A stretch of 64,000 bases of DNA from the NCBI GenBank assembly GCA_000002445.1, contig CH464491.1, forward strand, positions 2,272,001 through 2,336,000, written 5' to 3'. The DNA is from Trypanosoma brucei (lineage: Eukaryota). Below the pieces are notes generated by a model. The model searched no databases, was not told where the DNA came from, and saw only the letters and a list, made by a program, of their open reading frames with translations. Below, piece by piece: positions 18,577-56,030 of this stretch; within the stretch, counting starts at the first letter, position 1, and the number at the start of each line of letters is the position of its first letter. The translations under genes were made by a program, and so were the position numbers.

Positions 18577-20484
18577 ATGGAGACCAAAGCAATAATGCTA
18601 TTAGTGGTGTCGGCCATCGGTGTCGTGATGCTCACGTGGTTGTTTGTGAGCATTTGCACCCGTAAGTCTAAAGACGATGATATGCACAACGAACCATTGT
18701 TGTCAAAGCATGCAAACTCAAAGCTTATGGAAGTGGATGGAAGGGTCTTGGTCCTTTATGGCTCACAAACTGGCACTGCTGAAATGTTTGCGAGGAACCT
18801 TACACGAGAAGGTTCACGACGTGGCTTTCCCTTGAAAGTACTTGATATTGAGAAGTATCAGGCTTCCAATCTTGTCAAGGAGAAGCGTGTAATTATCGTA
18901 TGTGCCACCTATGGTGATGGTGAGCCCACAGACCCTATGGTTGAGTTCCACGATTGGTTAATGAGTGATTCTCGCGTGATGGGAGAGGAATTGAGTGGGG
19001 TGAGGTACACGGTGTTCGGCCTTGGCGACAGGCAATACGTCAATTTCTGCCGTGAAGGCATCACAGTGGACCGCCGCATGTCTGAGTTAGGCGCTCAGCG
19101 TTTCTATCCCCTTGGTCGCGGCGATTACAGTGATGACATTGAAGAAGATTTCGACAAATGGCGTTCCGGACTTTGGCCAGCACTGAGCACTGAGCTTGCA
19201 CTTGATGTAAAATCGGGCGAAGAGGGGCCGGTAGCTCCGGAATGCTGCATGAAAGCATTGGAATCTTCGGATGAAGCCCCGTTGCCGTTTCCGAAAGCGG
19301 ACCCGGGACTGGAACCAACACAACGATTGCCTTCTTGGGCACCAGTGAAGGTGAACAAGGAGCTGCTGAGCAATGCTACCGGAAGAAGTACAAGGTTGAT
19401 TGAGTTTGATACATCAGAAACTGTTATCTCCTACCAGGCTGGTGACCACCTCGGTGTTCTTCCTAGTAACCCCAGCGAAATGGTGAACACTTATCTGCGG
19501 GTGTTGGGCGTGAGCGAGCAAGAATCAAGTCAGGTCATCTCGTTAGAAAATAAAAATACTGGCGAGTGTGTTTTTCCTTGTCGCGCGTCGATTCGCACCG
19601 CACTCACGTGGTACATCGATCTTGCCGGGCCCCCCAAGAAGTCTACTTTGCGTGCTTTCGCCCACTATTGCACTGATCCCGTTGAAAAGGACACCTTGTT
19701 AAAACTGCTGAGTACTGAACCCGAGTCGGTGGAGGCGTATGGCAAGCTTGTTTTGGAGTTAAGGACTGTCCTTGGCTTTTTGCAGCGATTCAAGTCGATG
19801 TCTCCCCCGCTGAGTTTCTTCTTGGAGATGATGCCGCGGATTGCCCCACGGTATTTTTCCATTTCGTCTGATTCTCTGACCCACCCGACGAGTGTGGCCA
19901 TTACTGTTGCTGTGGTCGAGGGTGGCCTCTGCACAAATTTGCTTCAGCAGGCAGCCGTGGGTCAAAACATTCCCGTATTTGTGCGAAAATCGAACTTCCA
20001 CCTTCCGCTTCAAGCCGAGGATCGACCAATCATCATGATTGGCCCGGGCACGGGTGTAGCGCCTTTTATTGGATTTCTCCACCGCCGTAGCGCGTGGCTG
20101 GAAAAGGGTAACAAAGTTGGTGATGCACTTTTGTTTTTTGGTTGCAGGAGGCGTGAGGAGGATCATATATATGCCGACTTTATGGAGAAGTGTCTATCGA
20201 ATGGGGCACTCTCCGTGCGGGATGTTGCTTACAGCAGAGAACAAGCGGATAAAGTTTATGTGCAGCACCGCTTAGCGGCACGCGGGAAGGAAGTATGGGA
20301 AATAATCAGCAGAGGAGGAAATGTTTACGTATGCGGGGATGCAAAGAATATGGCGAGGGATGTCGAGAGGCAGCTACTGGACATCGCGCAGAAATATGGT
20401 GCAATGAAGGAGGATGAGGCGACGGCATTGCTTGAGAAACTCGCAACTGATGAACGGTATTTGAAGGATGTCTGGACGGCGTGA
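18577..20484 (+). CDS. CPR: NADPH-cytochrome P450 reductase (diflavin reductase) with N-terminal membrane anchor
   Basis: N-terminal hydrophobic segment, then flavodoxin/FMN motif LVLYGSQTGTAEMFA, FAD-binding region (RYFSISS), NADPH-binding GPGTGVAPFIGFL, and C-terminal YVCGDAKNMARDV...DVWTA with the terminal FAD-stacking Trp. This is the canonical CPR architecture. Confidence 0.9.
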   Translation: METKAIMLLVVSAIGVVMLTWLFVSICTRKSKDDDMHNEPLLSKHANSKLMEVDGRVLVLYGSQTGTAEMFARNLTREGSRRGFPLKVLDIEKYQASNLVKEKRVIIVCATYGDGEPTDPMVEFHDWLMSDSRVMGEELSGVRYTVFGLGDRQYVNFCREGITVDRRMSELGAQRFYPLGRGDYSDDIEEDFDKWRSGLWPALSTELALDVKSGEEGPVAPECCMKALESSDEAPLPFPKADPGLEPTQRLPSWAPVKVNKELLSNATGRSTRLIEFDTSETVISYQAGDHLGVLPSNPSEMVNTYLRVLGVSEQESSQVISLENKNTGECVFPCRASIRTALTWYIDLAGPPKKSTLRAFAHYCTDPVEKDTLLKLLSTEPESVEAYGKLVLELRTVLGFLQRFKSMSPPLSFFLEMMPRIAPRYFSISSDSLTHPTSVAITVAVVEGGLCTNLLQQAAVGQNIPVFVRKSNFHLPLQAEDRPIIMIGPGTGVAPFIGFLHRRSAWLEKGNKVGDALLFFGCRRREEDHIYADFMEKCLSNGALSVRDVAYSREQADKVYVQHRLAARGKEVWEIISRGGNVYVCGDAKNMARDVERQLLDIAQKYGAMKEDEATALLEKLATDERYLKDVWTA

Positions 20485-21766: not shown

Positions 21767-23032
21767 ATGGTGTTCATCCTCTTGGCATGCAGTGATATAT
21801 GCGGGAAGAAGGTAAATGTAACGTTGCCCTTCGAGAGGCCTCCCGAGTCACTCGATGAGCTTTACCGCGTCGTGGAGCAGTTGTTTCGTGGGGAGGAAAC
21901 GGATATAAAACGTACGGTCGACGGTGGCGAATACCGGACGCGCCCCTCTGAACCCTTTACCTGCCGTCGCATCCAGCGCTTCGATGATGAAACGAGAACT
22001 TGGGTGGAAGTAACAAGTGAGAAGCAGTTGGCCCCGTATGATCAATTGTATGTCTTTCGAAAGAACGCGACGCGAGCTGATATTTCCACTGAGCGGGAGC
22101 TACCGGAACCTCGCAGCAGCATTCACTTCCCCCAGACGGATGGCAGACTCAATGGGTTATACACTTCCAATGCCAACCGACGTGCCAGCACGGCAACGGT
22201 GAGTCATTTGACAAGCTCGCCGCACACGCCCACGACACAACAACAAACGGCCTCTTCGTCCCGCCGCGGTGGGGAGAGCCGCAGGTATAGTCTCTCCCGA
22301 GAGAGGGAAAAGAGTCGCGTTACAAGCAGCAGCTGCGTTCCTGAATGTATTGGTGGAAATGGTTCTCCGCAGGGGTTTGATATTAATGCGCGTGCTGATA
22401 AAGTGGTGAGGAAGCACGTAGAGGCTGTTTACTCCATTGGAGACGCATGCAAGAAAGGTTATCTAACCGCACGAGAGTTTCAGGGCATTTTTCGGTCCTG
22501 CCATATAGACTTCCCCTTCGATGCTATTGATGATATATATCGGGTGTTCGCTGATGACCGCGACGGGGATCGGGCCATGACAATTCGGAACTTCTACGAG
22601 TTCGCGCATAGTTTCAACCAAACTGTTAATATTGCTTATGCGCGCTTCAGCAACGAAAGGAGACAGCAAGTTGTGGAGCAGGAACAGCGTGGGGCGGAGT
22701 CTGCGCTTGAAGAACTGCAAAAGCAGAAACGAATACTTGAAGAGCGGTTGGAGGAAATGCAGAAGCAAATAGTTAAGGAGCAGGAGAGGCGGGCGCGTTT
22801 GCAGAATGAAGCAGATGAATTACGTATGTCCAGGGATCCGTCTTTGCGGGAAGAAGAACAACGATTACTCGAGAAGGAAGTGAGTGTGTTCCAATACAGG
22901 AAGAAACTTCTGCAAGAAGAAGTGGATTATGAGAAACTGGTAGCAGAGCGTCGTCGCCGGTCGGCGGCTGTAATGGGTCACACTAAAATGCTTCCCCAAA
23001 CATTCAAATATGGGTACGACATTCATGACTGA
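21767..23032 (+). CDS. Hypothetical protein, 421 aa, with a degenerate EF-hand-like segment and a C-terminal coiled coil
   Basis: ATG-initiated ORF on the + strand. The central segment LTAREFQGIFRSC...FADDRDGDRAMTIRNFYEF resembles an EF-hand helix-loop-helix but is not canonical. The C-terminal ~100 aa (EQEQRGAESALEELQKQKRILEERLEEMQKQ...) is coiled-coil-like. Confidence 0.55.
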   Translation: MVFILLACSDICGKKVNVTLPFERPPESLDELYRVVEQLFRGEETDIKRTVDGGEYRTRPSEPFTCRRIQRFDDETRTWVEVTSEKQLAPYDQLYVFRKNATRADISTERELPEPRSSIHFPQTDGRLNGLYTSNANRRASTATVSHLTSSPHTPTTQQQTASSSRRGGESRRYSLSREREKSRVTSSSCVPECIGGNGSPQGFDINARADKVVRKHVEAVYSIGDACKKGYLTAREFQGIFRSCHIDFPFDAIDDIYRVFADDRDGDRAMTIRNFYEFAHSFNQTVNIAYARFSNERRQQVVEQEQRGAESALEELQKQKRILEERLEEMQKQIVKEQERRARLQNEADELRMSRDPSLREEEQRLLEKEVSVFQYRKKLLQEEVDYEKLVAERRRRSAAVMGHTKMLPQTFKYGYDIHD

Positions 23033-24186: not shown

Positions 24187-25647
24187 ATGATTCGCTTGAG
24201 CGAAGTTGTGCGCCGCGTGTTGCTTCACGCTTCAGGTGGACGTTCGTGTAGATCATTCAGAAATGGATGTGGTGTCGAGAACGACCACGAAAACGGCAAC
24301 GCGGACCTTTTATCGTTGCGCTCCACCCTGCCCAATCAAAATGACTTTTTCTTTTCACGTTCTTCAGCCTCAAACTGTTGTCGCCTTTGCGGGGAGGTGT
24401 CTCAAACAATTCTTTCACACACTGGTTCACAGGCACATGTTACGGTAGAGGCACTCATGTGGCTGTTGTTTCAGAGAGCGAGACAATATAAGGATGGAGC
24501 TGTTGGTGTTTCTCCAACTGCAGCACGAAATTTTTTTGTTGAGGAGGCCAGAAGGTGGGAGGGAATACTGCAGTGTTCCTTAGTTAACCAGCGCTCGTCA
24601 TCACTTCATGCCATTACTGAGGATGGGTCACCTTGTCTTGAAGAATCTGCCGTGTATCATGGGGATCCCGCAACACTTTGGAAAGAGGTTGCTGAAAAAA
24701 GTGCGTTACGGCTGCAGAGTCAAATCCGCGTCTTGGGTAAACTTGGTGTGCTGAACGTTGTAGATTCCCTCTTTACAACGGCAAGCTCTGGTGGCTTGCA
24801 GCGTGACGCTGCTTTTCAGCGGATGGAGTGCATTGGTGATCACAATTGGGGGCATTCTGTTTGTCGTCGTATCGTGCTTCTTTTTCCAGAGGTTAACTGG
24901 CGGGCAAATTCAAATGTTTTGGTGATGGATGCATTACGGACGGTTCTTGAGTGTAATCAGCACCTGGTTCATGTTTTCACCTTGCTGCAGCTTAGCGACA
25001 AGCTAGGAGGCAGAGATGTGAAGGAAAAATCAGTGAAATTTAAAGCTGATATTGTTGAGGCGATTATTGGTGAATTGCACGTGGCATTATGGTCTTTGCA
25101 GTCTAGCACTAACGACGGTTTCACATCTATACCCTCAATTCACGGGGCTCCTTATACCATTCCTTTAGTTTCTATGGTGGAAGAGTGTTTAGATGGCATC
25201 GTGGGTCTTGTTATTCTTGCATTGATGGCGCGGTATGCCGCGTCCCTCGTGCCTGCCGTTGTGGATCTTGTCCGACGTGAGAAGTATCTGCTGGATGTGT
25301 CGTGCCCCTTTTATACGTTACGTAAGCGGCGGGAACGGTTCCGACAGGACGAACACGCCATGCGATGGTTATTGCCCCCGCACCCACCACTGCAGCAGCA
25401 GAGGCAGGAGTTGTTGAAGGGACCGCGGAGTTCTGTTGACACGTGCGTGAACGAGTGGAACCTTTCGAATACCAATCCTGTTGGTGATGTACTAGCCAAT
25501 GCCTCAGGTGGAGAAAATATGGCTCTAACAAATGCAATGGAGAAGCGGACCCCGACTGGGGTGGTTTGTTGGACGAAAAAGATTTTTTTCTCTGAAATGG
25601 CAGATTTCTATGGTTTGCTTCGCCTTCCGGGTGGGCAGCCGCCCTGA
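24187..25647 (+). CDS. RNase III-domain protein (possibly mitochondrial)
   Basis: RNase III signature-like block QRMECIGDHNWG (compare ERLEFLGDA) and a downstream block KADIVEAIIGELHVAL (compare DxxEAxxGAxxxD), with the catalytic E/D positions apparently retained. The N-terminus MIRLSEVVRRVLLHASGGRSCRSFRNG is Arg-rich, amphipathic and presequence-like. Confidence 0.5.
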   Translation: MIRLSEVVRRVLLHASGGRSCRSFRNGCGVENDHENGNADLLSLRSTLPNQNDFFFSRSSASNCCRLCGEVSQTILSHTGSQAHVTVEALMWLLFQRARQYKDGAVGVSPTAARNFFVEEARRWEGILQCSLVNQRSSSLHAITEDGSPCLEESAVYHGDPATLWKEVAEKSALRLQSQIRVLGKLGVLNVVDSLFTTASSGGLQRDAAFQRMECIGDHNWGHSVCRRIVLLFPEVNWRANSNVLVMDALRTVLECNQHLVHVFTLLQLSDKLGGRDVKEKSVKFKADIVEAIIGELHVALWSLQSSTNDGFTSIPSIHGAPYTIPLVSMVEECLDGIVGLVILALMARYAASLVPAVVDLVRREKYLLDVSCPFYTLRKRRERFRQDEHAMRWLLPPHPPLQQQRQELLKGPRSSVDTCVNEWNLSNTNPVGDVLANASGGENMALTNAMEKRTPTGVVCWTKKIFFSEMADFYGLLRLPGGQPP

Positions 25648-26013
25648 AGTGTACATTGTGTTGTTGTTTTTTCTTCTTTTCCGAGCGAGGGAACAAAATA
25701 TTATGGGGGAAGATCTGTCTAAAGGTAGAGAGGTCGGCGGGGCTGGTGTGCTAACTGAAAATTTTTTCTTTATTTTTCGCTTTCTCTTGTTGGCTTTCTT
25801 CCTCATTTATACGTATTTGCGAGGCCGTCAGGGATTAAAGTACGGGCGTCCTTTCACATCCCCAAAACAAAGGAGAGAGTGTACAAGGAGAATTCATCTG
25901 TGGGACCAAAGCTGAGCGCTCCCAACGACTGCGAAGTTGAACCGCAACAACGTGGAGGAAAGGAGTGAATCCAACCTGTGGTGAGGGAAAGCAGCACAAG
26001 AAGAAACAACACA

Positions 26014-28050
26014 ATGTCACAACTGCCGTTAATTCATACGCAACAAAAAAGTACGACACGCTACTGTCCATCGGGGGATGAAAACTCGGTTGCAGTGTTC
26101 CGCCCCAAGCTTCCTTTCTTGTCTGAGGTAAACTCATGCGCTTTAGTGGTTGCATCCTCTCGTTCGCAAGGCCGCAGTGTGTCACGATCGACTTCGGAGG
26201 GTGGTCAGTTAACTTCCGCGTCACGCCTTTCTTGGTTGTTGGAGCGACGCGCTACAGCACGACCTGCCACGGGGCGGTCATTGCAATGGGTAGAACTCAT
26301 GGAGAGACAGGGGCGCCAGCTCATAAAGGCCATAGCTTACTCAACTTCACCTGTTCGTTGTTATTTTATGGCCGGAGACGACGAGGGTTGCTTTCTGCCT
26401 TCATTGTGCGAACCGTGGCCTCCTACACTAACCACAGAAGATGAGCTCAATCAAATGATCAAAAGAGCTTCCGTCAAGGCTAAGGAGCACATTTTTGCTG
26501 ATCGTTGGTTTGGCGAGGGAAAGCAATGTGCTAAAGAACCCCTAGCAAATACAGACGCCTTCAAGAGCGTGGAGGAGAGTCAGATGGATATAATGAGGGA
26601 ATTCGTGGATTTGAGGAGTAGTGTGTGTAGTGAGTTCTTGAAACAAGTAGAGATACGGCGCTCTCTAATAGATCTGGTAAAAAAAGAGAAAGAAGCGAGG
26701 GTTGCCATGCTCGGTGAATTTATCTCATGCTGTCCTCCACATCCGTGTCGCTGCCTTTTATTGGACATGGAGGTTTTAGAGGAATCCGCCATCCCACTTG
26801 AGCCTGCAGTCGGTATTACCTGTCTGTACACTTCCATTGTGATTGGGGGACACGAAACCCTGGAGGAGACGTTGCTACAACAGCGGGAGGTGGAACTTCA
26901 AGTGCTTTATGATCAACACCGTTTTTTTATTGATGCTCAGAAGGTTCTCACCGACGTCCGGAATCGGGAGCACGAACGCTTTGAATCCATGATGGCCTAT
27001 TTTGCATTCGCCCTCAGGTTACTTCGGGAACGTGAGGCGCTCTCAGTGGAAACAACAACTCCACCCGGATGTGACGAAGGCCCACGTGAAACGAAAACAA
27101 GGGGCAAACGTTTTCATATGAACTATTACAAATACCTGCATGTACTTGGCACCATAGAGGTGGAGGAAGGGGCACGCGGGCGGATTTGTGCGGGAGAGTT
27201 CACAGAAATTCGTCATATCTTGTATCATTTTGAGAGAAAATGCCGCAGTAGTATTGTTTCGACTGAGGAACTGGAACGGCAGCGCTTGCTCCTCAATACC
27301 GAGATGCAGCAGCGGTTATCTATTCAGAATGCCGAAGAATTGGCACTCAATGAGACAGTATGTCCTCGTAGCTTCCAGGAACTAATCGAGACACTCATGA
27401 AGAAAGAACGTGAGGAGTGGCAGCGAGCCCTCGAAGAGGCGCGCATCACACGGTCCATTGAGTTGGTTTGTGAATACGAGGTGTATCGGCGGCGTGAAAT
27501 TGGTTTGTTTGAACAACAGCTGCGGGCGTGTGCTCGATTCTTATTTCTGAATACCACCGATGGTGCTGGTAGGATTACTGTAGAGCGATGGATGCGCGAA
27601 CATGAGGTTCTAGTAGTGCAGCGGGAGGAGGCCGCCTTGAGGAAACGTATCGTGGAGTCGGAGGATCAGGCGCTCACCACATGGATCACAGCGCATAGGT
27701 GGATGGTGGATCATGACCGCCACCTTCAGAGTATAGCAAAAGAGAAGGAGGATAGGCGCGCAGTGGACCGTGTCATTGCGGAGGAGTGTGCTGCACGTGG
27801 CGTCGTGGAGTCTCTTTGGGCAGGTGAGCATTACGTGCTCTTCGGGGAAGTGATTCGCGTTCCTGAGGGCATTTATAAGTTTCCAGAGGGTAGACAAAGT
27901 GGTGAGGGGAGAGAGAGCAGCTGCGGTGACGGGGAAAGCACCTCTCGTGGGTTAGACATTCGTCAAGTTGTTATCGCCAACCTCGGGGAATTTTTTAACG
28001 ATCGAGCACTCTTGGGCTTTTTCGATAGGCGCCCCGTTTCACCTATTTGA
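26014..28050 (+). CDS. Hypothetical coiled-coil protein (~678 aa from first ATG; ORF-track start 25978 is a GTG)
   Basis: Long ORF on the + strand. Its second half is rich in E/R/L heptad-like repeats (EREEWQRALEEARI...). No catalytic motif recognised. Confidence 0.55.
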   Translation: MSQLPLIHTQQKSTTRYCPSGDENSVAVFRPKLPFLSEVNSCALVVASSRSQGRSVSRSTSEGGQLTSASRLSWLLERRATARPATGRSLQWVELMERQGRQLIKAIAYSTSPVRCYFMAGDDEGCFLPSLCEPWPPTLTTEDELNQMIKRASVKAKEHIFADRWFGEGKQCAKEPLANTDAFKSVEESQMDIMREFVDLRSSVCSEFLKQVEIRRSLIDLVKKEKEARVAMLGEFISCCPPHPCRCLLLDMEVLEESAIPLEPAVGITCLYTSIVIGGHETLEETLLQQREVELQVLYDQHRFFIDAQKVLTDVRNREHERFESMMAYFAFALRLLREREALSVETTTPPGCDEGPRETKTRGKRFHMNYYKYLHVLGTIEVEEGARGRICAGEFTEIRHILYHFERKCRSSIVSTEELERQRLLLNTEMQQRLSIQNAEELALNETVCPRSFQELIETLMKKEREEWQRALEEARITRSIELVCEYEVYRRREIGLFEQQLRACARFLFLNTTDGAGRITVERWMREHEVLVVQREEAALRKRIVESEDQALTTWITAHRWMVDHDRHLQSIAKEKEDRRAVDRVIAEECAARGVVESLWAGEHYVLFGEVIRVPEGIYKFPEGRQSGEGRESSCGDGESTSRGLDIRQVVIANLGEFFNDRALLGFFDRRPVSPI

Positions 28051-32835: not shown

Positions 32836-33699
32836 ATGAGTTTAGTAAGCGTCACAAATCGAATGACCTACCGTGCAGCTGTTGTTGATCTGGATGGCAC
32901 CCTGTTAAATGAGAATCACCGTATCAGTGCTTACACTCTCGATACCATCCAAAAGTTATTAAAGCGCAATATTCCTGTTGTTATTGCTACGGGCCGCCCA
33001 CATCCCGATGTCTTTCACACAATAAAAAGCTGTGGCCTACAGGGAACCTATGTGATTACTTCCAATGGTGCACGTGTTAGTGACCCGCAGCTTAATGTCA
33101 TTGCCTCTTTTAACCTTAGCGAAGATGTGGTGTCGGAGCTAATTGGGCTCGGATCATCTGGGGAGGACATTCAGGACCCAAAAGAGGTACCGTACACAGT
33201 TAATTTGTTTCAACACGATGAGTGGGTAACAGATGCTGCAAGGGATGAGTTGCTTCTAATGTTTGCTTCTTCCGGTTTCCATTACAGAGTAGTGGATGAC
33301 TTGCAGGCCCACCAAAAGGATGGTGTGCATGAGCTTGTCTTCTTGGCACAACCAAATACTTTGCATTTGCTGGAGGGAGTTGTGAAGAAGCGCTTCGAGG
33401 GCAGGATCTCCGTCATGCGCTCCACATCAATTACACTCGATGTTGTCCACCACAATGCAAATAAAGCTACTGCTATGGCGAAGGTGGCTGAACTTCTGGG
33501 TTTGGAACTGAAGGACATTGTTTCCTTTGGGGACGGCATGAATGATGTCCAAATGCTTGCTGCCGCTGGAAAGGGTTATATCATGGGAAATGCACAACAA
33601 CGTTTAAAAGATGCCCTTCCACATCTGGAGGTTATTGGCACCAATGCGGAAGACAGCGTGGCGAAGAAACTTCGCGAACTGTTCAATATTGAAGACTAG
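32836..33699 (+). CDS. HAD-superfamily hydrolase, Cof-type (HAD-IIB) sugar-phosphate phosphatase-like
   Basis: Motif I VVDLDGTLL, motif II VVIATGRP, and motif III/IV region ...K..A...FGDGMNDVQMLAAAGKGYIMGNA. The cap region and length (287 aa) are typical of Cof/YbiV-like phosphatases. Confidence 0.85.
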   Translation: MSLVSVTNRMTYRAAVVDLDGTLLNENHRISAYTLDTIQKLLKRNIPVVIATGRPHPDVFHTIKSCGLQGTYVITSNGARVSDPQLNVIASFNLSEDVVSELIGLGSSGEDIQDPKEVPYTVNLFQHDEWVTDAARDELLLMFASSGFHYRVVDDLQAHQKDGVHELVFLAQPNTLHLLEGVVKKRFEGRISVMRSTSITLDVVHHNANKATAMAKVAELLGLELKDIVSFGDGMNDVQMLAAAGKGYIMGNAQQRLKDALPHLEVIGTNAEDSVAKKLRELFNIED

Positions 33700-35663: not shown

Positions 35664-36563
35664 ATGCATGGTGGCGCAAACTCTGCAGTGGCCTCTGTGC
35701 ATGTAGATCCGACTGCCCAGCTGCAATACAACAGGCAGCGGGGGACCGAAGCTTACGCGGAATGCGAATATTCTGACGGTTCTGCGGATGAGAACAATCG
35801 TTACCCCCAACGGGGGCAGCCGCCACAAACGCATGAAACAGCGGCCGTCTCCATAACGGACAACAGGCAGCAGAGCAACATGACACCACGTGCGCACGCA
35901 GGCGGGACCGGGGGCGGTGGCGGTGGCTCAACCATGCGACGCAATGTTATTAATAGGTTTGATTATGGAATCATATCACCTAGTGATGCACGCAGTCTGT
36001 TTCTAGGTGCATCCCTGCTCAACATCTTTTTCGCTATTCTTGGTACTTCTCTATCGCAACTCGACGAAGTTGGTGGTGCGTGTTTTACTTTTTGGGGTTA
36101 CAAAACGGATTGTGACTCGGTAAGTTACACTATCCGCACTCAACTTCTGCCGTGTGCACCCATTCGCGGGAGACTTCAGACTGGAGCCGCATTTTCTATC
36201 ATATCTATTTGCCTCTTGGCATCAATTATTTATCTTTATATCAGGTCTGCGTTGGCAAAGTACATGTCACAATATAATGCAGAGGGGCAAACTCCGGCAC
36301 GCAGGATGGAATCGCGTAGCGGCATCTTGCCAGCGGAAGACTCGATTGTGGCGAGTAATAAGTGGACTATTGTAGCGGTGGGTGGTGTTGTGGTATTGTG
36401 TGAGGTCATTAGTTGGGCAATGACTATAAGTGTGTACGTATCCCGTTTCTGTGAGGATGCCAGTTTGGATCGTAACAAAGTTTATGGACCTGGTTTCGCC
36501 CTTTTAATAGTGGGGACGCTGTTGTTTCTAATGGCGCTTGTAGTTTTCGCACTTAGGGCATAG
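35664..36563 (+). CDS. Amastin-like surface protein (299 aa) with a ~100-aa N-terminal extension
   Basis: Contains the amastin signature C-[ILVF]-T-F-W-G-x-K-x-D-C within DEVGGACFTFWGYKTDCDS. The signature is preceded by a hydrophobic TM segment (LFLGASLLNIFFAILG) and followed by three more predicted TM helices (AAFSIISICLLASIIYLYI; WTIVAVGGVVVLCEVISWAMTI; FALLIVGTLLFLMALVVFAL). This is the four-TM amastin topology. Confidence 0.65.
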   Translation: MHGGANSAVASVHVDPTAQLQYNRQRGTEAYAECEYSDGSADENNRYPQRGQPPQTHETAAVSITDNRQQSNMTPRAHAGGTGGGGGGSTMRRNVINRFDYGIISPSDARSLFLGASLLNIFFAILGTSLSQLDEVGGACFTFWGYKTDCDSVSYTIRTQLLPCAPIRGRLQTGAAFSIISICLLASIIYLYIRSALAKYMSQYNAEGQTPARRMESRSGILPAEDSIVASNKWTIVAVGGVVVLCEVISWAMTISVYVSRFCEDASLDRNKVYGPGFALLIVGTLLFLMALVVFALRA

Positions 36564-47163: not shown

Positions 47164-48881
47164 ATGTGTGGGGGAGAAGAGAATGGTGGATTGGATCAGG
47201 CACATGTGTCCTACAGTGGCAGTGCGAGTGAGCAAAACATTGCGGAAATGATTGTAGACCCATCAGGTTCCCGTCAGCCCACAGCATTCCAACTCACACT
47301 CGATTGCAATAAGGCAGGAATGGGAAATGTGGATAAGGAACGTGTGGAAGCTATTATACGTAATGTAAGGGAAGGCTCACCTTTTTTATGAATGAGCAGC
47401 GTTTGGCTGAGGGTCGAGAGAAGCAACTGCAAGAGCTGAAGCGGAAATCATCTCTCTTCACTCAGTTGTTGGGTGGTGAACGAAACGCTGCGCAGCGGAA
47501 ACAGTGGGAGCTGAAGGTTTCCAAAATAGAACAGGAGCTTGAGGCTACGCGTCGACTGGGAACTTATATCCATTTAGACATGGACATGTTTTATGCTGCT
47601 GTTGAAATCAAGAAGCATCCGGAGTACGCCGCCATTCCGCTTGCCATAGGCACAATAACGAGGTTGATAACAACAAATTATGTTGCGCGTGGACGTGGTA
47701 TTCGTCAAGGTATGCCAGGTTTCCTTGCTCTAAAAATCTGCCCGAATTTGCTCATTCTGCCTCCTGATTTCGATGCTTACAATGAGGAATCCAATACTGT
47801 GCGCCGTATTGTTGCTGAATACGACCCTAATTATATCAGCTTTGGTTTGGATGACTTTACTCTCGAAGTAAGTGCCTACATAGAGCGTTTTGAGGGAACC
47901 AAAACAGCCGAAGATGTGGCTTCTGAACTGCGTGTGCGTGTATTTGGTGAAACAAAGTTGACAGCAAGTGCTGGTATTGGACCCACTGCAGCACTTGCCA
48001 AGATTGCCAGTAATATTAATAAGCCGAATGGACAACATGATCTTAATCTTCACACCCGAGGGGATGTGATGACATACGTCAGGGATTTGGGTCTACGTTC
48101 TGTGCCTGGTGTTGGGAAGGTTACGGAAGCTCTGTTGAAGGGACTGGGTATCACCACTCTCTCAGATATTTACAATAGGCGTGTTGAACTTTGTTACATT
48201 TTGCACAATAATTTATTTCGCTTTTTGCTTGGAGCTTCCATTGGCATTATGCAATGGCCCGATGCAGCAACGGCAGCCAATACCGAGAATTGTGAGGGGG
48301 CTACTGGAGAGCAACGGAAGGCAATCAGTAGCGAGCGATCCATCACTACTCCACGAACCAAAGAAGGTATGCAGGAAATGCTTGATACCGTATTCAATGG
48401 TGCCTATGAAGAAATGCGGAAGAGTGAGCTAATGTGTAGACGCATTTCGTTAAGAATTAGGTGGGCCTCCTATCGTTATCAACAATACACAAAAAGTTTG
48501 ATACAATATTCAGATGACTCTGCAACCCTTCGCCGCGCAGTGGATGGTTTACTGTTACCGCATGCTGCAAAGTATTCAGAGATTTCACTGTTGGGGGTAC
48601 GTTTTCTTGACCTTATCTCTGCAAAAGACTTTCATATGAAAAGAAAGGGTGGTAACCAACTGTCTATTTCACAATTTATTCGCCCCAAGAAGCCGGGTGA
48701 GGTAACAGCAACCACCGGTATAAAAAGGGAGAGAACTACTGAACCGAAACAGGTTGTTGGAGTGAATCTATCATCAGATGACGAGGATGAGAATGATAGT
48801 GTTGGCTTGGCATCTAGCTCCACTATACTCGTTTCAACTGACAAAGGTACTGTTGAGAGGGAAGTTACCATAATTGAGTGA
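47164..48881 (+). pseudogene. POLK: DNA polymerase kappa-like copy 1 with a -1 frameshift (pseudogene, or a sequencing error in a T-run)
   Basis: The N-terminal ORF (track 47152..47391) ends at a TGA (47389-47391) within cttttttatgaatgag. The paralogous copies read ...ccttttt(g/a)(a/t)t(g/t)aatga(g/a)... in frame, and copy 1 is 1 nt shorter at this point. The downstream ORF 47388..48881 encodes the full catalytic core (LDMDMFYAAVE, SFGLDDFTLEVS). Confidence 0.7.
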
Positions 48882-50286: not shown

Positions 50287-50991
50287 ACATGTATTGTTAT
50301 ACACCTATCATATGTTTTCATTTTTTGAAGTTATACTTTATATGGTTTATTACTTACATTGTTTTTTTCTTAAGCATGCTTGTGCTCATGTACAACCAGT
50401 GGAGCAACTGGCTAATAACTCCTTCATCTTTGTGCGGACACCTTGGTGTATCCTATACTTTCTTTGAGGCCTTCTAATCCAGGTACTTTTTACACACTGT
50501 GACGCTAATAAGTGTAGTTCTTTCTTTTGATTAATGTCTACTGCGTGCAGTGATGCGAAAAAGTGTGTACTTTATTTGTATGTTTATCTTCGGGTTTGAT
50601 TTGTTTGGTTGCTGATGACAGCGGAAGGTCTCTGCAATTATGAAAACTCATAAGGAGGTCCACTATAATTATACTGTTGTTCCCAGATATACGGGTGTGC
50701 GCCTAAAGGGACACGTGACGTTCAAATTGGATATCCCTCCCATTGTTGACCGTATCTCACATTATTGGATATGTTGTAATCACTGACGGCTTGCTGTGAA
50801 CTGCCACAGCTGTACACATGCACACACATGTGATTCGGTTTTTCTTCTCCTAATATCCTTCCTTTCATATAATATAGGCAACCACACAATATTGGCACAA
50901 CACCTGCTATCAAACTACCCTAACCCAAGTGTCTGTTTGTTTCTTTACGTCACTGGGAGGGTTTTAACAAGAACTAACATTGAGTCTGACT

Positions 50992-52704
50992 ATGTGTGGG
51001 GGAGAAGAGAATGGTGGATTGGATCAGGCACATGTGTCCTACAGTGGCAGTGCGAGTGAGCAAAACATTGCGGAAATGATTGTAGACCCATCAGCTTCCC
51101 GTCAGCCCACAGCATTCCAACTCACACTCGATTGCAATAAGGCAGGAATGGGAAATGTGGATAAGGAGCGTGTCGCTGCAGTGATACATGAGATGTCTGC
51201 GGGATCAGGGTACCTTTGCAATCAGCAGCGTTTATCAAAAAGTCGAGAGAAGCAACTGCAAGAACTCAAGCGGAAATCATCTCTCTTCACTCAGTTGTTG
51301 GGTGGTGAACGAAACGCTGCGCGGCGGACGCAGTGGGAGGTGAAGGTTTCCAAAATAGAACAGGAGCTTGAGGCTACGCGTCGACTGGGAACTTATATCC
51401 ATTTAGACATGGACATGTTTTATGCTGCTGTTGAAATCAAGAAGCATCCGGAGTACGCCAACGTTCCGCTTGCAGTTGGAACTAAAACAATGCTAACAAC
51501 CGCAAATTATGTTGCTAGAGGTTGTGGTGTCCGTCCTGGTATGCCAGGTTATATCGGATTGAAGATTTGCCCGAATTTGCTCATTCTGCCTCCTGATTTC
51601 GATACTTACAATGAGGAATCCAATACTGTGCGCCGTATTGTTGCTGAATACGACCCTAATTACATCAGCTTTGGTTTGGATGAACTGACCCTTGAGGTAA
51701 GTGCCTACATAGAGCGTTTTGAGGGAACCAAAACAGCCGAAGATGTGGCTTCTGAACTGCGTGTGCGTGTATTTGGTGAAACAAAGTTGACAGCAAGTGC
51801 TGGTATTGGACCCACTGCAGCACTTGCCAAGATTGCCAGTAATATTAATAAGCCGAATGGACAACATGATCTTAATCTTCACACCCGAGGGGATGTGATG
51901 ACATACGTCAGGGATTTGGGTCTACGTTCTGTGCCTGGTATTGGGAAGGCTATGGAAGCTCTGTTGAAGGGACTGGGTATCACCACTCTCTCAGATATTT
52001 ACAATAGGCGTGTTGAACTTTGTTATATCTTTACCGAAAAAACATATCGCTTTTTGCTTGGAGCTTCCATTGGCATTATGCAATGGCCCGATGCGTGTAA
52101 TATACCGGGTGGCTCTGTCGATGATGGGACAGGTGTGGGAAGGAAGTCAGTTGGTAGTGAACGTACATTCAAAATATTGCAAAGCAAAGAGGAATTACAG
52201 GAAATTGTTGATTTTATTTTTAATTCTTCGTATGATGAACTAAAGAAACATGAGCTGATGTGTAGACAGGTTTCGTTAAGAATAAGGTGGGCAACCTATC
52301 GATCCCGGCAGTATACTATGAATTTAGCCCAACATTCAGATGACTCTGCAACCCTTCGCCGCGCAGTGGATGGTTTACTGTTACCGCATGCTGCAAAGTA
52401 CTCAGATATGTCGTTACTGGGGATGCGTCTGTTAGACCTTATCTTTGCAAAAGACTTTCATATGAAAAGAAAGGGTGGTAACCAACTGTCTATTTCACAA
52501 TTTATTCGCCCCAAGAAGCCGGGTGAGGTAACAGCAACCACCGGTATAAAAAGGGAGAGGACTACTGAACCGAAACAGGTTGTGGAAATAATAATATCAT
52601 CAGATGACGAGGATGAGAATGATAGTGTTGGCTTGGCATCTAGCTCCACTATACTCGTTTCAACTGGCAAAGGTACTGTTGAGAGGGAAGTTACCATAAT
52701 TTAG
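50992..52704 (+). CDS. POLK: DNA polymerase kappa-like (Y-family/DinB) copy 2, variant A little-finger cassette
   Basis: Y-family motifs are present: motif I LDMDMFYAAVE, motif III SFGLDELTLEVSAY, and HhH/thumb SVPGIGKAMEALLKGLGITTLSDI. Copy-specific cassettes are ANVPLAVGTKTMLTTANYVARGCGVRPGMPGYIGLKI and CNIPGGSVDDGTGVGRKSVGSERTFKILQSKEELQEIVDF... The ORF-track start 50980 is a TTG; the first ATG is at 50992. Confidence 0.9.
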   Translation: MCGGEENGGLDQAHVSYSGSASEQNIAEMIVDPSASRQPTAFQLTLDCNKAGMGNVDKERVAAVIHEMSAGSGYLCNQQRLSKSREKQLQELKRKSSLFTQLLGGERNAARRTQWEVKVSKIEQELEATRRLGTYIHLDMDMFYAAVEIKKHPEYANVPLAVGTKTMLTTANYVARGCGVRPGMPGYIGLKICPNLLILPPDFDTYNEESNTVRRIVAEYDPNYISFGLDELTLEVSAYIERFEGTKTAEDVASELRVRVFGETKLTASAGIGPTAALAKIASNINKPNGQHDLNLHTRGDVMTYVRDLGLRSVPGIGKAMEALLKGLGITTLSDIYNRRVELCYIFTEKTYRFLLGASIGIMQWPDACNIPGGSVDDGTGVGRKSVGSERTFKILQSKEELQEIVDFIFNSSYDELKKHELMCRQVSLRIRWATYRSRQYTMNLAQHSDDSATLRRAVDGLLLPHAAKYSDMSLLGMRLLDLIFAKDFHMKRKGGNQLSISQFIRPKKPGEVTATTGIKRERTTEPKQVVEIIISSDDEDENDSVGLASSSTILVSTGKGTVEREVTII

Positions 52705-53509
52705 TGAAGTGAGGACATCAGTCAATGGAAACGCTCACATTGCCCAATGGCATTCATATACAAATCACCTATACACAAGTACCCATAAACAAAACACATT
52801 ATACACATGTATTGTTATACAGCTATCATATGTTTTCATTTTTTGAAGTTATACTTTATATGGTTTATTACTTACATTGTTTTTTTCTTAAGCATGCTTG
52901 TGCTCATGTACAACCAGTGGAGCAACTGGCTAATAACTCCTTCATCTTTGTGCGGACACCTTGGTGTATCCTATACTTTCTTTGAGGCCTTCTAATCCAG
53001 GTACTTTTTACACACTGTGACGCTAATAAGTGTAGTTCTTTCTTTTGATTAATGTCTACTGCGTGCAGTGATGTGAAAAAGTCTGTACTTTATTTGTATG
53101 TTTATCTTCGGGTTTGATTTGTTTGGTTGCTGATGACAGCGGAAGGCCTCTGCAATTATGAAAACTCATAAGGAGGTCCACTATAATTATACTGTTGTTC
53201 CCAGATATACGGGTGTGCGCCTAAAGGGACACGTGACGTTCAAATTGGATATCCCTCCCATTGTTGACCGTATCTCACATTATTGGATATGTTGTAATCA
53301 CTGACGGCTTGCTGTGAACTGCCACAGCTGTACACATGCACACACATGTGATTCGGTTTTTCTTCTCCCAATATCCTTCCTTTCATATAATATAGGCAAC
53401 CACACAATATTGGCACAACACCTGCTATCAAACTACCCTAACCCAAGTGTCTGTTTGTTTCTTTACGTCATTGGGAGGGTTTTAACAAGAACTAACATTG
53501 AGTCTGACT

Positions 53510-55228
53510 ATGTGTGGGGGAGAAGAGAATGGTGGATTGGATCAGGCACATGTGTCCTACAGTGGCAGTGCGAGTGAGCAAAACATTGCGGAAATGATTG
53601 TAGACCCATCAGCTTCCCGTCAGCCCACAGCATTCCAACTCACACTCGATTGCAATAAGGCAGGAATGGGAAATGTGGATAAGGAACGTGTGGAAGCTAT
53701 TATACGTGGTGCCGGGGAAGGCACACCTTTTTTATTAAATGAACAACGTTTGGTTGAGGGTCGAGAGAAGCAACTGCGGGAACTCAAACGGAAATCATCT
53801 CTCTTCACTCGGTTGTTGGGTGGTGAACGAAACGCTGCGCAGCGGACGCAATGGGAGGTGAAGGTTTCCAAAATAGAACAGGAGCTTGAGGCTACGCGTC
53901 GACTGGGAACTTATATCCATTTAGACATGGACATGTTTTATGCTGCTGTTGAAATCAAGAAGCATCCGGAGTACGCCACCATTCCGCTTGCCATAGGCAC
54001 CATGACGAGGCTACAAACAGCAAATTACATTGCGCGTGGACGTGGTATTCGTCAAGGTATGCCAGGTTTCCTTGCTCTAAAAATCTGCCCGAATTTGCTC
54101 ATTCTGCCTCCTGATGATGATTCTTACAATGAGGAATCCAATACTGTGCGCCGTATTGTTGCTGAATACGACCCTAATTACATAGTTGTTGGTTTGGATG
54201 AACTAGCCCTTGAGGTAAGTGCCTACATAGAGCGTTTTGAGGGAACCAAAACAGCCGAAGATGTGGCTTCTGAACTGCGTGTGCGTGTATTTGGTGAAAC
54301 AAAGTTGACAGCAAGTGCTGGTATTGGACCCACTGCAGCACTTGCCAAGATTGCCAGTAATATTAATAAGCCGAATGGACAACATGATCTTAATCTTCAT
54401 ACCCGAGAGGATGTGATGACATACGTCAGGGATTTGGGTCTACGTTCTGTGCCTGGTGTTGGGAAGGTTACGGAAGCTCTGTTGAAGGGACTGGGTATCA
54501 CCACTCTCTCAGATATTTACAATAGGCGTGTTGAACTTTGTTACATTTTGCACAATAATTTATTTCGCTTTTTGCTTGGAGCTTCCATTGGCATTATGCA
54601 ATGGCCCGATGCAGCAACGGCAGCCAATACCGAGAATTGTGAGGGGGCTACTGGAGAGCAACGGAAGGCAATCAGTAGCGAGCGATCCATCACTACTCCA
54701 CGAACCAAAGAAGGTATGCAGGAAATGGTTGATACCGTATTCAATGGTGCCTATGAAGAAATGCGGAAGAGTGAGATAATGTGTAGACGGATATCCCTCA
54801 CAATTAGATGGGCGTCTTATCGTTATCAACAATACACAAAAAGTTTGATACAACATTCAGATGACTCTGCAACCCTTCGCCGCGCAGTAGACGAGCTCAT
54901 GTTACCGCACGCTGCAAAGTATTCAGAGATGTGTTTGTTGGGGGTACGTCTCTCGGACCTTATCTCTGCAAAAGACTTTCATATGAAAAGAAAGGGTGGT
55001 AACCAACTGTCTATTTCACAATTTATTCGCCCCAAGAAGCCGGGTGAGGTAACAGCAACCACCGGTATAAAAAGGGAGAGGACTACTGAACCGAAACAGG
55101 TTGTGGAAATAATAATATCATCAGATGACGAGGATGAGAATGATAGTGTTGGCTTGGCATCTAGCTCCACTATACTCGTTTCAACTGACAAAGGTACTGT
55201 TGAGAGGGAAGTTACCATAATTGAGTGA
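53510..55228 (+). CDS. POLK: DNA polymerase kappa-like copy 3, variant B cassette set
   Basis: Shares the same conserved blocks as the other copies. Motif III reads VVGLDELALEVS. It carries a unique PPDDDSYNEES block. The thumb/little-finger linker is CEGATGEQRKAISSERSITTPRTKEGMQEMVDTVF, shared with copies 1 and 6. Confidence 0.9.
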   Translation: MCGGEENGGLDQAHVSYSGSASEQNIAEMIVDPSASRQPTAFQLTLDCNKAGMGNVDKERVEAIIRGAGEGTPFLLNEQRLVEGREKQLRELKRKSSLFTRLLGGERNAAQRTQWEVKVSKIEQELEATRRLGTYIHLDMDMFYAAVEIKKHPEYATIPLAIGTMTRLQTANYIARGRGIRQGMPGFLALKICPNLLILPPDDDSYNEESNTVRRIVAEYDPNYIVVGLDELALEVSAYIERFEGTKTAEDVASELRVRVFGETKLTASAGIGPTAALAKIASNINKPNGQHDLNLHTREDVMTYVRDLGLRSVPGVGKVTEALLKGLGITTLSDIYNRRVELCYILHNNLFRFLLGASIGIMQWPDAATAANTENCEGATGEQRKAISSERSITTPRTKEGMQEMVDTVFNGAYEEMRKSEIMCRRISLTIRWASYRYQQYTKSLIQHSDDSATLRRAVDELMLPHAAKYSEMCLLGVRLSDLISAKDFHMKRKGGNQLSISQFIRPKKPGEVTATTGIKRERTTEPKQVVEIIISSDDEDENDSVGLASSSTILVSTDKGTVEREVTIIE

Positions 55229-56030
55229 AATGAGGACATCAGTCAATAGAAATTCCCACATTGCCCAATGGTATTCATATACAAATCACCTATACACAAG
55301 TACCCATAAACAAAACACATTATACACATGTATTGTTATACACCTATCATATGTTTTCATTTTTTGAAGTTATACTTTATATGGTTTATTACTTACATTG
55401 TTTTTTTCTTAAGCATGCTTGTGCTCATGTACAACCAGTGGAGCAACTGGCTAATAACTCCTTCATCTTTGTGCGGACACCTTGGTGTATCCTATACTTT
55501 CTTTGAGGCCTTCTAATCCAGGTACTTTTTACACACTGTGACGCTAATAAGTGTAGTTCTTTCTTTTGATTAATGTCTACTGCGTGCAGTGATGCGAAAA
55601 AGTCTGTACTTTATTTGTATGTTTATCTTCGGGTTTGATTTGTTTGGTTGCTGATGACAGCGGAAGGCCTCTGCAATTATGAAAACTCATAAGGAGGTCC
55701 ACTATAATTATACTGTTGTTCCCAGATATACGGGTGTGCGCCTAAAGGGACACGTGACGTTCAAATTGGATATCCCTCCCATTGTTGACCGTATCTCACA
55801 TTATTGGATATGTTGTAATCACTGACGGCTTGCTGTGAACTGCCACAGCTGTACACATGCACACACATGTGATTCGGTTTTTCTTCTCCCAATATCCTTC
55901 CTTTCATATAATATAGGCAACCACACAATATTGGCACAACACCTGCTATCAAACTACCCTAACCCAAGTGTCTGTTTGTTTCTTTACGTCACTGGGAGGG
56001 TTTTAACAAGAACTAACATTGAGTCTGACT

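What the first reader, a model, noticed from the sequence alone, without database searches (positions are those of the whole stretch)
24187..25647. RNase III-domain protein with presequence-like N-terminus and apparently intact catalytic residues
The motifs ECIGDHNWG and KADIVEAIIGEL match the two conserved RNase III blocks (E..GD and D..EA.IGA) with the acidic catalytic positions retained. The N-terminus (MIRLSEVVRRVLLHASGGRSCRSFRNG) looks like a mitochondrial targeting peptide. Kinetoplastids use RNase III-fold proteins in RNA editing, gRNA processing, mitoribosomes and RNAi. A 486-aa single-RNase-III-domain protein with no obvious dsRBD could belong to any of these. The long C-terminal region (residues 300-486) has no recognisable motif.
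Basis: inference. Interest (0 to 1): 0.5.

Follow-up and report, generated by a model that had tools for sequence, protein, structure and literature searches.

The report
Known trypanosome mitochondrial RNase III, mRPN1
This open reading frame is the already published Trypanosoma brucei gene mRPN1 (Tb927.11.8400), a mitochondrial double-stranded-RNA-cutting enzyme related to the RNA-editing nucleases, so the finding is correct but not new.

Summary
The ORF at 24187-25647 (+) is real and encodes 486 aa. It is 100% identical to T. brucei TREU927 XP_828914.1 and to the T. equiperdum protein annotated "Mitochondrial RNA processing endonuclease 1 (mRPN1)". All 12 gene-specific primers that Carnes et al. 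2015 published for mRPN1 (Tb927.11.8400) match the window exactly, at the stated offsets from this ATG.

Both RNase III motifs are present. The four core catalytic acids (E214, D218, D288, E291) align with E. coli RNase III E41, D45, D114 and E117.

- a conserved U1-like C2H2 zinc finger (C65, C68, H78, H84);
- residues 300-368 belong to the extended RNase III fold, including a 44-residue helix shared with KREN1;
- only residues 370-486 are poorly conserved and predicted disordered.

I found no dsRBD, although older papers say the protein has one.

According to the literature, mRPN1 is a homodimeric, Mg2+-dependent dsRNA endonuclease first assigned to guide-RNA precursor cleavage. A bloodstream-form knockout later showed no gRNA or editing defect, and gRNA maturation is now attributed to the MPsome exonuclease. 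The identity and biochemistry are known. Only the in-vivo substrate remains open.

Verdict: already known, low interest.

The parts
24187..25647 (+). Complete coding sequence of mRPN1 / KRPN1 (Tb927.11.8400), 486 aa plus stop codon
   Evidence: ORF list and translation. 100% identical to XP_828914.1 / Q384H9_TRYB2 and to T. equiperdum 'mRPN1'. The 12 gene-specific primers of Carnes et al. 2015 match exactly at the published offsets.
24187..24267 (+). Presequence-like N-terminus (aa 1-27), Arg-rich and amphipathic
   Evidence: 6 R/K against 1 D/E in the first 30 aa. The maximum hydrophobic moment is 0.71 at aa 2-12, above the protein-wide 95th percentile of 0.56. AF2 predicts a helix at aa 5-16 with low confidence. 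Papers describe the protein as mitochondrial. No targeting predictor was run.
24379..24438 (+). U1-like C2H2 zinc finger, C65-x2-C68-x9-H78-x5-H84 (CRLCGEVSQTILSHTGSQAH)
   Evidence: The Cys/His pattern is found in every Trypanosoma orthologue with an intact N-terminus and in several environmental relatives. It aligns weakly with the KREN1 zinc-finger region (domain 1). AF2 pLDDT is 70-79 here, with short strands followed by a helix. The literature states that the U1-like ZnF is conserved between mRPN1 and KREN1-3. No Pfam zinc-finger model hits.
24430..24576 (+). Conserved helical region after the zinc finger (aa 82-130; GAVGVSP...FF.EE..RWE)
   Evidence: Invariant columns L94, A98, G104, V106, G107, F116, F117, E120, R123 and E125 among Trypanosoma orthologues. 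Helices at aa 82-99 and 110-129 have pLDDT 88-94.
24667..25098 (+). RNase III catalytic domain with its N-terminal lead-in helix (aa 161-304)
   Evidence: Pfam Ribonuclease_3 covers aa 211-297. KREN1 alignment covers aa 193-361. pLDDT is about 90. Foldseek top hits are 9dei_C (KREN1), 9dei_D, 9dei_A, the Entamoeba RNase III 5f3p and K. polysporus Dcr1.
24814..24852 (+). RNase III signature motif FQRMECIGDHNWG (aa 210-222) carrying catalytic E214 and D218; Q211 replaces E. coli E38
   Evidence: Alignment to E. coli RNase III. F210, R212, E214, C215, I216, G217, D218, W221 and G222 are invariant in 17 relatives.
25036..25077 (+). Second catalytic block KFKADIVEAIIGEL (aa 284-297) carrying D288 and E291
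   Evidence: Alignment to E. coli D114/E117. K284, E291, G295 and L297 are invariant. D288 is conserved in 16 of 17 sequences; the exception is T. vivax, which has Val.
25159..25290 (+). [quoted passage not shown]
   Evidence: A single 44-residue helix, pLDDT above 90 over most of its length. It aligns with KREN1 aa 385-421, and the profile match to MP90 and MP61 extends through it. The RAM is described in Carnes et al. 2022, PMC9508840. The equivalence is my inference.
25294..25644 (+). Poorly conserved C-terminal tail, predicted disordered (aa 370-486); no dsRBD detected
   Evidence: pLDDT is below 50 throughout. No Pfam hit at E<=10. No PDB sequence hit at E<=10 for aa 360-486. Conservation is low.
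25321..25392 (+). Basic patch followed by a short conserved motif (RKRRERF...RWLLPPHPPL, aa 379-402)
   Evidence: L396, P397 and L402 are invariant in Trypanosoma. P397 is conserved in at least 90% of 17 relatives. Its function is unknown.

Best explanation
The ORF is the Trypanosoma brucei nuclear gene Tb927.11.8400, which encodes mRPN1 (renamed KRPN1 in a 2026 review). mRPN1 is a mitochondrial RNase III-family endonuclease and a paralogue of the RNA-editing endonucleases KREN1-3.

Its architecture, in order, is: a presequence-like N-terminus, a U1-like C2H2 zinc finger, a helical linker, an RNase III catalytic domain with all four metal-binding acids, a long RAM-like helix, and a disordered tail.

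The most likely mechanism is as follows. Two copies pair through their RNase III domains into a homodimer. Because both subunits keep E214/D218/D288/E291, the dimer has two active sites and cuts both strands of an RNA duplex in a Mg2+-dependent reaction, leaving 2-nt 3' overhangs. The editing enzymes differ: one active KREN subunit pairs with an inactive KREPB partner and nicks only the mRNA strand. With no dsRBD, the two zinc fingers probably hold the duplex across the active-site cleft.

What is shown here: the gene identity, the motifs, the residue conservation, the predicted fold and the paralogy to KREN1. What is taken from the literature: homodimerisation, in-vitro dsRNA cleavage and mitochondrial association. 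What is inferred: the RNA-binding role of the zinc fingers and the RAM equivalence.

The physiological substrate is unresolved. The original assignment to cleavage of polycistronic gRNA precursors is probably wrong or non-essential.
For: Identity:
- The protein is 100% identical over 486 aa to a cluster containing XP_828914.1 (T. brucei TREU927) and SCU71187.1, named 'Mitochondrial RNA processing endonuclease 1 (mRPN1)' in T. equiperdum.
- Every gene-specific primer of Carnes et al. 2015 for mRPN1 (Tb927.11.8400) matches the window with 0 mismatches at the published positions: -38, ATG, 362, 437, 1526, plus the UTR and integration primers.

Family:
- KREN1/MP90 in the solved RECC1 structure matches at E=1.1e-26 for the single sequence.
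- A family profile gives MP90 at 1.4e-64, MP61/KREN2 at 1.7e-22 and Giardia Dicer at 4.7e-4.
- Pfam Ribonuclease_3 hits 12 of 17 relatives.
- The AF2 model has pLDDT around 90 over aa 160-368, and Foldseek returns RNase III structures only at the top of the list.

Catalysis:
- The four acids align with E. coli E41/D45/D114/E117. They are invariant or nearly invariant in 17 relatives, including environmental kinetoplastid-like sequences.

A lineage separate from KREN1:
- A neighbour-joining tree of the core domain places mRPN1 and its relatives apart from the KREN1 group.

Literature:
- mRPN1 forms homodimers, does not associate with editosome proteins, needs Mg2+ and a conserved catalytic residue, and leaves 2-nt 3' overhangs. 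These points come from Carnes et al. 2015 (PMC4274635) and the Nicholson review (PMC3867540), both summarising Madina et al. 2011.
Against: - The Pfam RNase III score for this sequence is below the curated threshold (22 against 27 bits).
- E. coli E38 is replaced by Gln211.
- I could not read the primary biochemical paper (Madina et al. 2011), so the activity data are second-hand.
- Ribosome-profiling data cited by Carnes et al. put mRPN1 in the bottom 10-18th percentile of translated mRNAs, and the null mutant grows almost normally. The enzyme may therefore contribute little in cultured cells.
- The T. vivax orthologue carries Val at the D288 position.
- The tools could not model a homodimer or a complex with RNA.
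Confidence: 0.9

Rival explanations
1. mRPN1 is the essential endonuclease that cuts polycistronic minicircle transcripts to release mature guide RNAs (the original Madina et al. 2011 model).
For: As summarised, RNAi in procyclic cells reduced gRNAs, raised gRNA-junction precursors and lowered edited mRNAs. The protein co-purified with MRB1 components such as TbRGG2. Intact catalytic residues are conserved.
Against: A complete knockout in bloodstream forms left total gRNAs, four gRNA junctions and editing unchanged. Independent procyclic RNAi gave no growth defect (personal communication cited in the paper). Translation is very low. The authors suspect off-target RNAi effects. The 2026 review attributes gRNA maturation to uridylation-induced, antisense-controlled 3'-5' exonucleolytic trimming by the MPsome. 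mRPN1 was not detected in Perkinsela, which still edits its RNA.
Confidence: 0.12
2. It is a subunit of the RNA-editing catalytic complex: either a fourth editing endonuclease or a KREPB-type partner protein.
For: [quoted passage not shown] The best structural and sequence matches are RECC1 chains. Several orthologues are auto-annotated 'RNA editing complex protein'.
Against: [quoted passage not shown] The 2026 review does not include it among the eight RECC proteins that carry an RNase III motif, RAM and ZnF, and lists it in its protein table only as an endonuclease with an RNase III domain. In the tree it forms its own clade away from KREN1. Foldseek reports only 24% sequence identity between the model and KREN1 chain 9dei_C.
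Confidence: 0.03
3. It is a nearly silent or vestigial paralogue with no significant catalytic role in vivo, possibly drifting towards a pseudoenzyme like KREPB4-10.
For: It has very low ribosome occupancy and the null mutant has almost no phenotype. The T. vivax orthologue lacks the catalytic Asp. The C-terminal third is poorly conserved.
Against: The catalytic tetrad, the signature motif and the zinc-finger ligands are conserved across Trypanosoma and in distant environmental relatives, which argues for purifying selection on an active enzyme. Recombinant protein is reported to be active.
Confidence: 0.08

Closest known systems
mRPN1 / KRPN1 of Trypanosoma brucei (Tb927.11.8400; Madina et al. 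2011; Carnes et al. 2015)
   Same: It is the same gene. The protein sequence is 100% identical, and all published primers match at the published offsets.
   Different: Nothing differs in sequence. My domain reading differs from older descriptions: I find no dsRBM or dsRBD. Instead there is a RAM-like helix followed by a disordered tail.
KREN1 (MP90), the U-deletion editing endonuclease of RECC1 (PDB 9dei chain C)
   Same: It has a U1-like zinc finger, an RNase III domain with intact catalytic acids and a long following helix. It is the closest solved relative (E=1.1e-26 for the single sequence, 1.4e-64 for the profile, Foldseek rank 1).
   Different: KREN1 is 818 aa, sits in RECC1 and pairs with the inactive KREPB8, so only one strand is cut. 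mRPN1 is 486 aa, is reported to be homodimeric and outside the editosome, and cuts both strands. The two fall in separate clades.
Bacterial class 1 RNase III (E. coli Rnc, Aquifex aeolicus RNase III)
   Same: Both are homodimeric, have a single RNase III domain per chain, share the four metal-binding acids and leave 2-nt 3' overhangs (literature).
   Different: No dsRBD was detected. mRPN1 has an N-terminal zinc finger and extra helices instead. Gln replaces E. coli E38. The similarity is weak (24% identity over 90 aa).
Minimal or non-canonical RNase III enzymes without a dsRBD (Entamoeba histolytica EhRNaseIII, PDB 5f3o/5f3p; Mini-III type)
   Same: The RNase III fold works without a dsRBD. 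These structures are Foldseek hits at ranks 4-7.
   Different: They have no zinc finger and no RAM-like helix. They are not mitochondrial and belong to an unrelated lineage (16% identity).

Membership tests
mRPN1 (Tb927.11.8400) orthologue group | Sequence identity with the published gene | tested here: met
   100% identity over 486 aa to XP_828914.1 and to the T. equiperdum protein named mRPN1. The 12 published gene-specific primers match exactly at the stated offsets.
RNase III family (Pfam PF00636) | Signature motif (E)RLE-x-x-GD and second block D-x-x-E-A-x-x-G | tested here: met
   QRMECIGD at aa 211-218 and KADIVEAIIG at aa 286-295. The first Glu is replaced by Gln.
RNase III family (Pfam PF00636) | Four metal-binding acidic residues (E. 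coli E41, D45, D114, E117) | tested here: met
   E214, D218, D288 and E291 align with them. They are invariant or nearly invariant in 17 relatives.
RNase III family (Pfam PF00636) | HMM score above the curated gathering threshold | tested here: not met
   22 bits against a cut-off of 27, E=3e-4. 12 of 17 relatives hit at E<=0.01, best 3.3e-6. Membership therefore rests on transitive homology to KREN1 and KREN2 and on the fold.
RNase III family (Pfam PF00636) | All-helical RNase III fold | tested here: met
   AF2 gives pLDDT around 90 over aa 160-368. The Foldseek top hits are all RNase III structures: RECC1 chains, Entamoeba RNase III and K. polysporus Dcr1.
RNase III family (Pfam PF00636) | Mg2+-dependent cleavage of dsRNA with 2-nt 3' overhangs | not testable with these tools
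   Reported for mRPN1 by Madina et al. 2011, as summarised in PMC4274635 and PMC3867540. I could not read the primary paper.
Class 1 (bacterial-type) RNase III | C-terminal dsRBD | tested here: not met
   No dsrm hit at E<=10 for this protein or at E<=0.01 in any of 17 relatives. aa 360-486 have no PDB sequence match. aa 370-486 have pLDDT below 50, with one short low-confidence helix and no strands. A negative result from a low-confidence region is not proof of absence.
RECC RNase III paralogues (KREN1-3, KREPB4-8) | U1-like ZnF, RNase III motif and RAM helix architecture | tested here: met
   ZnF with C65/C68/H78/H84. RNase III domain. Helix at aa 325-368 aligned with KREN1 385-421. RAM definition from PMC9508840.
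RECC RNase III paralogues (KREN1-3, KREPB4-8) | Orthology to one of the eight RECC proteins | tested here: not met
   It forms a separate clade from the KREN1-like sequences in the core-domain NJ tree. Foldseek reports 24% sequence identity between the model and KREN1 chain 9dei_C. The tree is a simple distance tree without support values.
RECC RNase III paralogues (KREN1-3, KREPB4-8) | Stable association with the editosome as a heterodimer | not testable with these tools
   The literature reports homodimers and no association with editosome proteins.
Mitochondrial matrix proteins with a cleavable presequence | Arg-rich, acid-poor amphipathic N-terminal helix | tested here: inconclusive
   The composition and hydrophobic moment fit, and orthologues also begin with basic N-termini. 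No dedicated predictor or cleavage-site model was available.

The most novel reading that the evidence does not exclude
mRPN1 may not be a gRNA-processing enzyme at all. It could be a conserved, low-abundance mitochondrial dsRNA endonuclease that clears or trims the sense/antisense duplexes formed when both strands of minicircles (and maxicircles) are transcribed. These are the same duplexes that delimit MPsome trimming. In that case its loss would be buffered in culture and would matter only in particular life-cycle stages or under stress. A smaller novel point is that the published 'dsRBM' is not there: substrate binding would depend on the paired zinc fingers and the RAM-like helix, and the conserved basic patch plus W-x-L-P motif in the tail would be a docking peptide.
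Probability: 0.2. Interest if true: 0.45.

Novelty: already known. Interest (0 to 1): 0.12.

Why it matters
For the scan this is a correct recognition of a published gene, so nothing new is discovered. Two minor points could interest trypanosome RNA biologists. First, the enzyme's physiological substrate is still unknown, because the gRNA-processing assignment was undermined in 2015-2016, yet its catalytic site is conserved even in distant environmental relatives. Second, its domain annotation in older papers (a dsRBM, or possibly a PUF domain) is not supported by current profile and structure-prediction evidence, which instead shows the same ZnF, RNase III and RAM-helix layout as the editing nucleases.

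Tried and rejected
- I tried to read the primary paper (Madina et al. 2011, PMID 21810935 / PMC3185915) and Suematsu et al. 2016 (PMC4744118). Neither is held, so their content is cited only through Carnes 2015, Nicholson 2014 and the 2026 review.
- The first AF2 run, with 9 Trypanosoma sequences, was too poor to use (mean pLDDT 45). It was replaced by a 17-sequence run.
- A PDB sequence search with the C-terminal 127 aa found nothing.
- Cluster look-up of ten distant relatives returned no organism names. Contig look-ups showed that two of them come from environmental metagenomes, so I could not name the organisms or settle whether Leishmania has an orthologue.
- I ran no further search on that question, because it would not change the verdict.
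- I considered TbDCL1/2 (RNAi Dicer-like proteins), mitoribosomal RNase III-like proteins and KREPB6-10. I rejected them because the sequence is identical to mRPN1 and the catalytic residues are intact.
- The overlapping minus-strand ORF at 25211..25696 (161 aa, TTG start) was not examined. I assumed it is a by-product of the mechanical ORF listing, because every ORF of at least 200 aa in the window lies on the + strand.

Full report
**1. Observation**

The window has an ATG-to-stop ORF at exactly 24187..25647 on the + strand, encoding 486 aa.
- The quoted motifs are present: ECIGDHNWG at aa 214-222 and KADIVEAIIGEL at aa 286-297. The quoted N-terminus is aa 1-27.
Q211 pairs with E38.

**2. 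Identity**

The protein search returned a 100%-identical, full-length cluster. Its members are XP_828914.1/EAN79802.1 (T. brucei brucei TREU927, UniProt Q384H9) and SCU71187.1, which is named "Mitochondrial RNA processing endonuclease 1 (mRPN1)" in T. equiperdum.

To link the window directly to the gene that was studied experimentally, I took the primers published by Carnes et al. 2015 (PMC4274635) for mRPN1 = Tb927.11.8400 and searched for them in the window.
- All twelve gene-specific primers match with zero mismatches.
- They match at the published positions relative to the ATG at 24187: -38, 0, 362, 437 and 1526, plus the 5'/3' UTR and integration primers.
- The BamHI-removal mutagenic primer matches with 2 mismatches.

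The window is therefore T. brucei chromosome 11 and the ORF is mRPN1. A 2026 review lists the gene as KRPN1/mRPN1, "Endonuclease, RNase III, Tb927.11.8400".

**3. Family evidence**

| Test | Result |
|---|---|
| Pfam Ribonuclease_3, this protein | aa 211-297, 22 bits (gathering cut-off 27), E=3e-4 |
| Pfam Ribonuclease_3, 17 relatives | hits 12, best E=3.3e-6; no other Pfam family appears |
| PDB sequences, single protein | KREN1/MP90 in RECC1 (9dei_C) E=1.1e-26 over aa 193-361; KREN2/MP61 (9z0h_C) 1.2e-5; Giardia Dicer 0.15 |
| PDB sequences, 17-sequence profile | 1.4e-64, 1.7e-22 and 4.7e-4 for the same three |
| HMMER profile scan of 1.84 billion representatives | 104 hits at E<=1e-3; full-length matches only in Trypanosoma; many other proteins share the core aa ~170-350 |

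A neighbour-joining tree of the core domain separates two groups. One is an mRPN1 group: the Trypanosoma orthologues plus P0015, P0018, P0019, P0029 and P0034. The other is a large KREN1-like group that contains the 818-aa KREN1 representative. Two of the distant mRPN1-like relatives come from environmental metagenome contigs.

**4. Anatomy**

An AF2 model built from the 17-sequence alignment has mean pLDDT 66, but the confidence is sharply divided along the chain.
- **aa 1-49:** low confidence, with a short N-terminal helix. The region is Arg-rich (6 R/K against 1 D/E in the first 30 aa) and has the highest amphipathic moment in the protein. This fits a presequence, but no dedicated predictor was available.
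- **aa 50-130:** pLDDT 70-94. This region contains a C2H2 zinc finger, C65-x2-C68-x9-H78-x5-H84. The pattern is found in all N-terminally complete Trypanosoma orthologues and in several environmental relatives. Conserved helices follow it. The literature calls it a U1-like ZnF shared with KREN1-3.
- **aa 132-155:** a variable linker.
- **aa 160-368:** pLDDT around 90. This is the RNase III domain plus one continuous 44-residue helix (aa 325-368). The helix aligns with KREN1 aa 385-421. [quoted passage not shown] 2022 defined in all RECC RNase III paralogues, in the region earlier called dsRBM and later PUF. This equivalence is my inference.
- **aa 370-486:** pLDDT below 50 and poorly conserved. 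The exceptions are a basic patch followed by W-x-L-P-x-x-P-x-L (aa 379-402; P397 is nearly invariant) and a weakly conserved terminal helix.

Foldseek against the PDB ranks RECC1 chains C, D and A first, then the Entamoeba dsRBD-less RNase III, then K. polysporus Dcr1. Nothing else is significant.

I found no dsRBD. There is no dsrm hit at E<=10 or in any relative. The last 127 aa have no PDB sequence match, and the model shows no alpha-beta-beta-beta-alpha unit. [quoted passage not shown]

**5. Mechanism**

According to Carnes 2015 and Nicholson 2014, both summarising Madina et al. 2011, mRPN1 forms homodimers, does not associate with editosome proteins, needs Mg2+ and a conserved catalytic residue, and leaves 2-nt 3' overhangs on dsRNA.

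This matches the sequence. All four metal ligands are intact and are conserved in 16 of 17 relatives. A homodimer would therefore carry two active sites and cut both strands. The editing heterodimers have a single active site (KREN plus an inactive KREPB partner) and nick only the mRNA. By analogy with models of the editing enzymes, I infer that the two zinc fingers replace the dsRBD in holding the duplex.

**6. Biological role**

It rested on procyclic-form RNAi. Later evidence weighs against it.
- Carnes et al. 2015 deleted both alleles in bloodstream forms. Growth was nearly normal, and total gRNAs, four gRNA junctions and editing were unchanged.
- They cite independent procyclic RNAi without a phenotype, and ribosome-profiling ranks in the bottom 10-18th percentile. 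They conclude that mRPN1 is probably not involved in gRNA processing.
- The 2026 review describes gRNA maturation as uridylation-induced, antisense-controlled 3'-5' exonucleolytic trimming by the MPsome.
- mRPN1 was not detected in Perkinsela.

The in-vivo substrate is therefore open. Conservation of the active site argues against a dead gene. One untested possibility is the clearance of mitochondrial sense/antisense duplexes.

**7. Verdict**

The object is a named, biochemically characterised gene, so it is already known. The only additions here are a cleaner domain map (ZnF present, RAM-like helix, disordered tail, no dsRBD) and the note that the function remains unsettled. Interest is low.

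Noticed in passing
window 50980-62685 (five ORFs of about 575 aa with a period of about 2.5 kb), plus 47388-48881: A tandem array of Y-family DNA polymerase genes. Pfam IMS, IMS_HHH and IMS_C hit the two copies tested. There are five near-identical-length copies plus a shorter, related sixth ORF upstream.
   Followed up: partly
whole window 1-64000: All 22 ORFs of at least 200 aa lie on the + strand, as expected for a single trypanosomatid polycistronic transcription unit. Pfam assigns some neighbours: an NADPH-cytochrome P450 reductase-like protein (18577-20484), a HAD hydrolase (32836-33699) and an amastin (35664-36563). The immediate neighbours at 21767-23032 and 25978-28050 have no Pfam match.
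   Followed up: partly
orthologue P0008 (T. vivax Y486), aligned to window aa 288 (25048-25050): The T. vivax orthologue has Val in place of the catalytic Asp288 (KFKAVVVEAIAGEL). It is the only one of 17 relatives without the Asp. This could be a sequencing or assembly error, or a lineage-specific inactivation.
   Followed up: no
window 25321-25392 (aa 379-402): A short conserved element sits in the otherwise variable, predicted-disordered tail: a basic patch (RKRRERF) followed by W-x-L-P-x-x-P-x-L. P397 is nearly invariant even in environmental relatives. It may be a docking or localisation peptide.
   Followed up: no
window 24817-24819 (aa 211): Gln replaces the first Glu of the RNase III signature (E. 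coli E38) in all Trypanosoma mRPN1 orthologues and in relatives P0015 and P0018. P0019 has His, while P0029, P0034, P0016, P0020, P0022 and the KREN1-like sequences keep Glu. It may serve as a lineage marker.
   Followed up: partly
locus of P0015 (JGI metagenome 3300059473, no DNA returned); L001 (ENA ERZ1292633 contig, 2295 bp): mRPN1-like proteins with the same ZnF plus RNase III layout occur on environmental metagenome contigs, presumably from free-living kinetoplastids. On the P0015 contig the next gene downstream encodes 667 aa, similar in length to the 690-aa ORF downstream of mRPN1 in the window. This may be conserved gene order.
   Followed up: no
orthologue P0004 (T. congolense IL3000, 411 aa): The T. 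congolense entry starts at the position aligned with window M91 and lacks the presequence and zinc finger. This is probably a mis-called start or a truncated gene model rather than a real difference.
   Followed up: no
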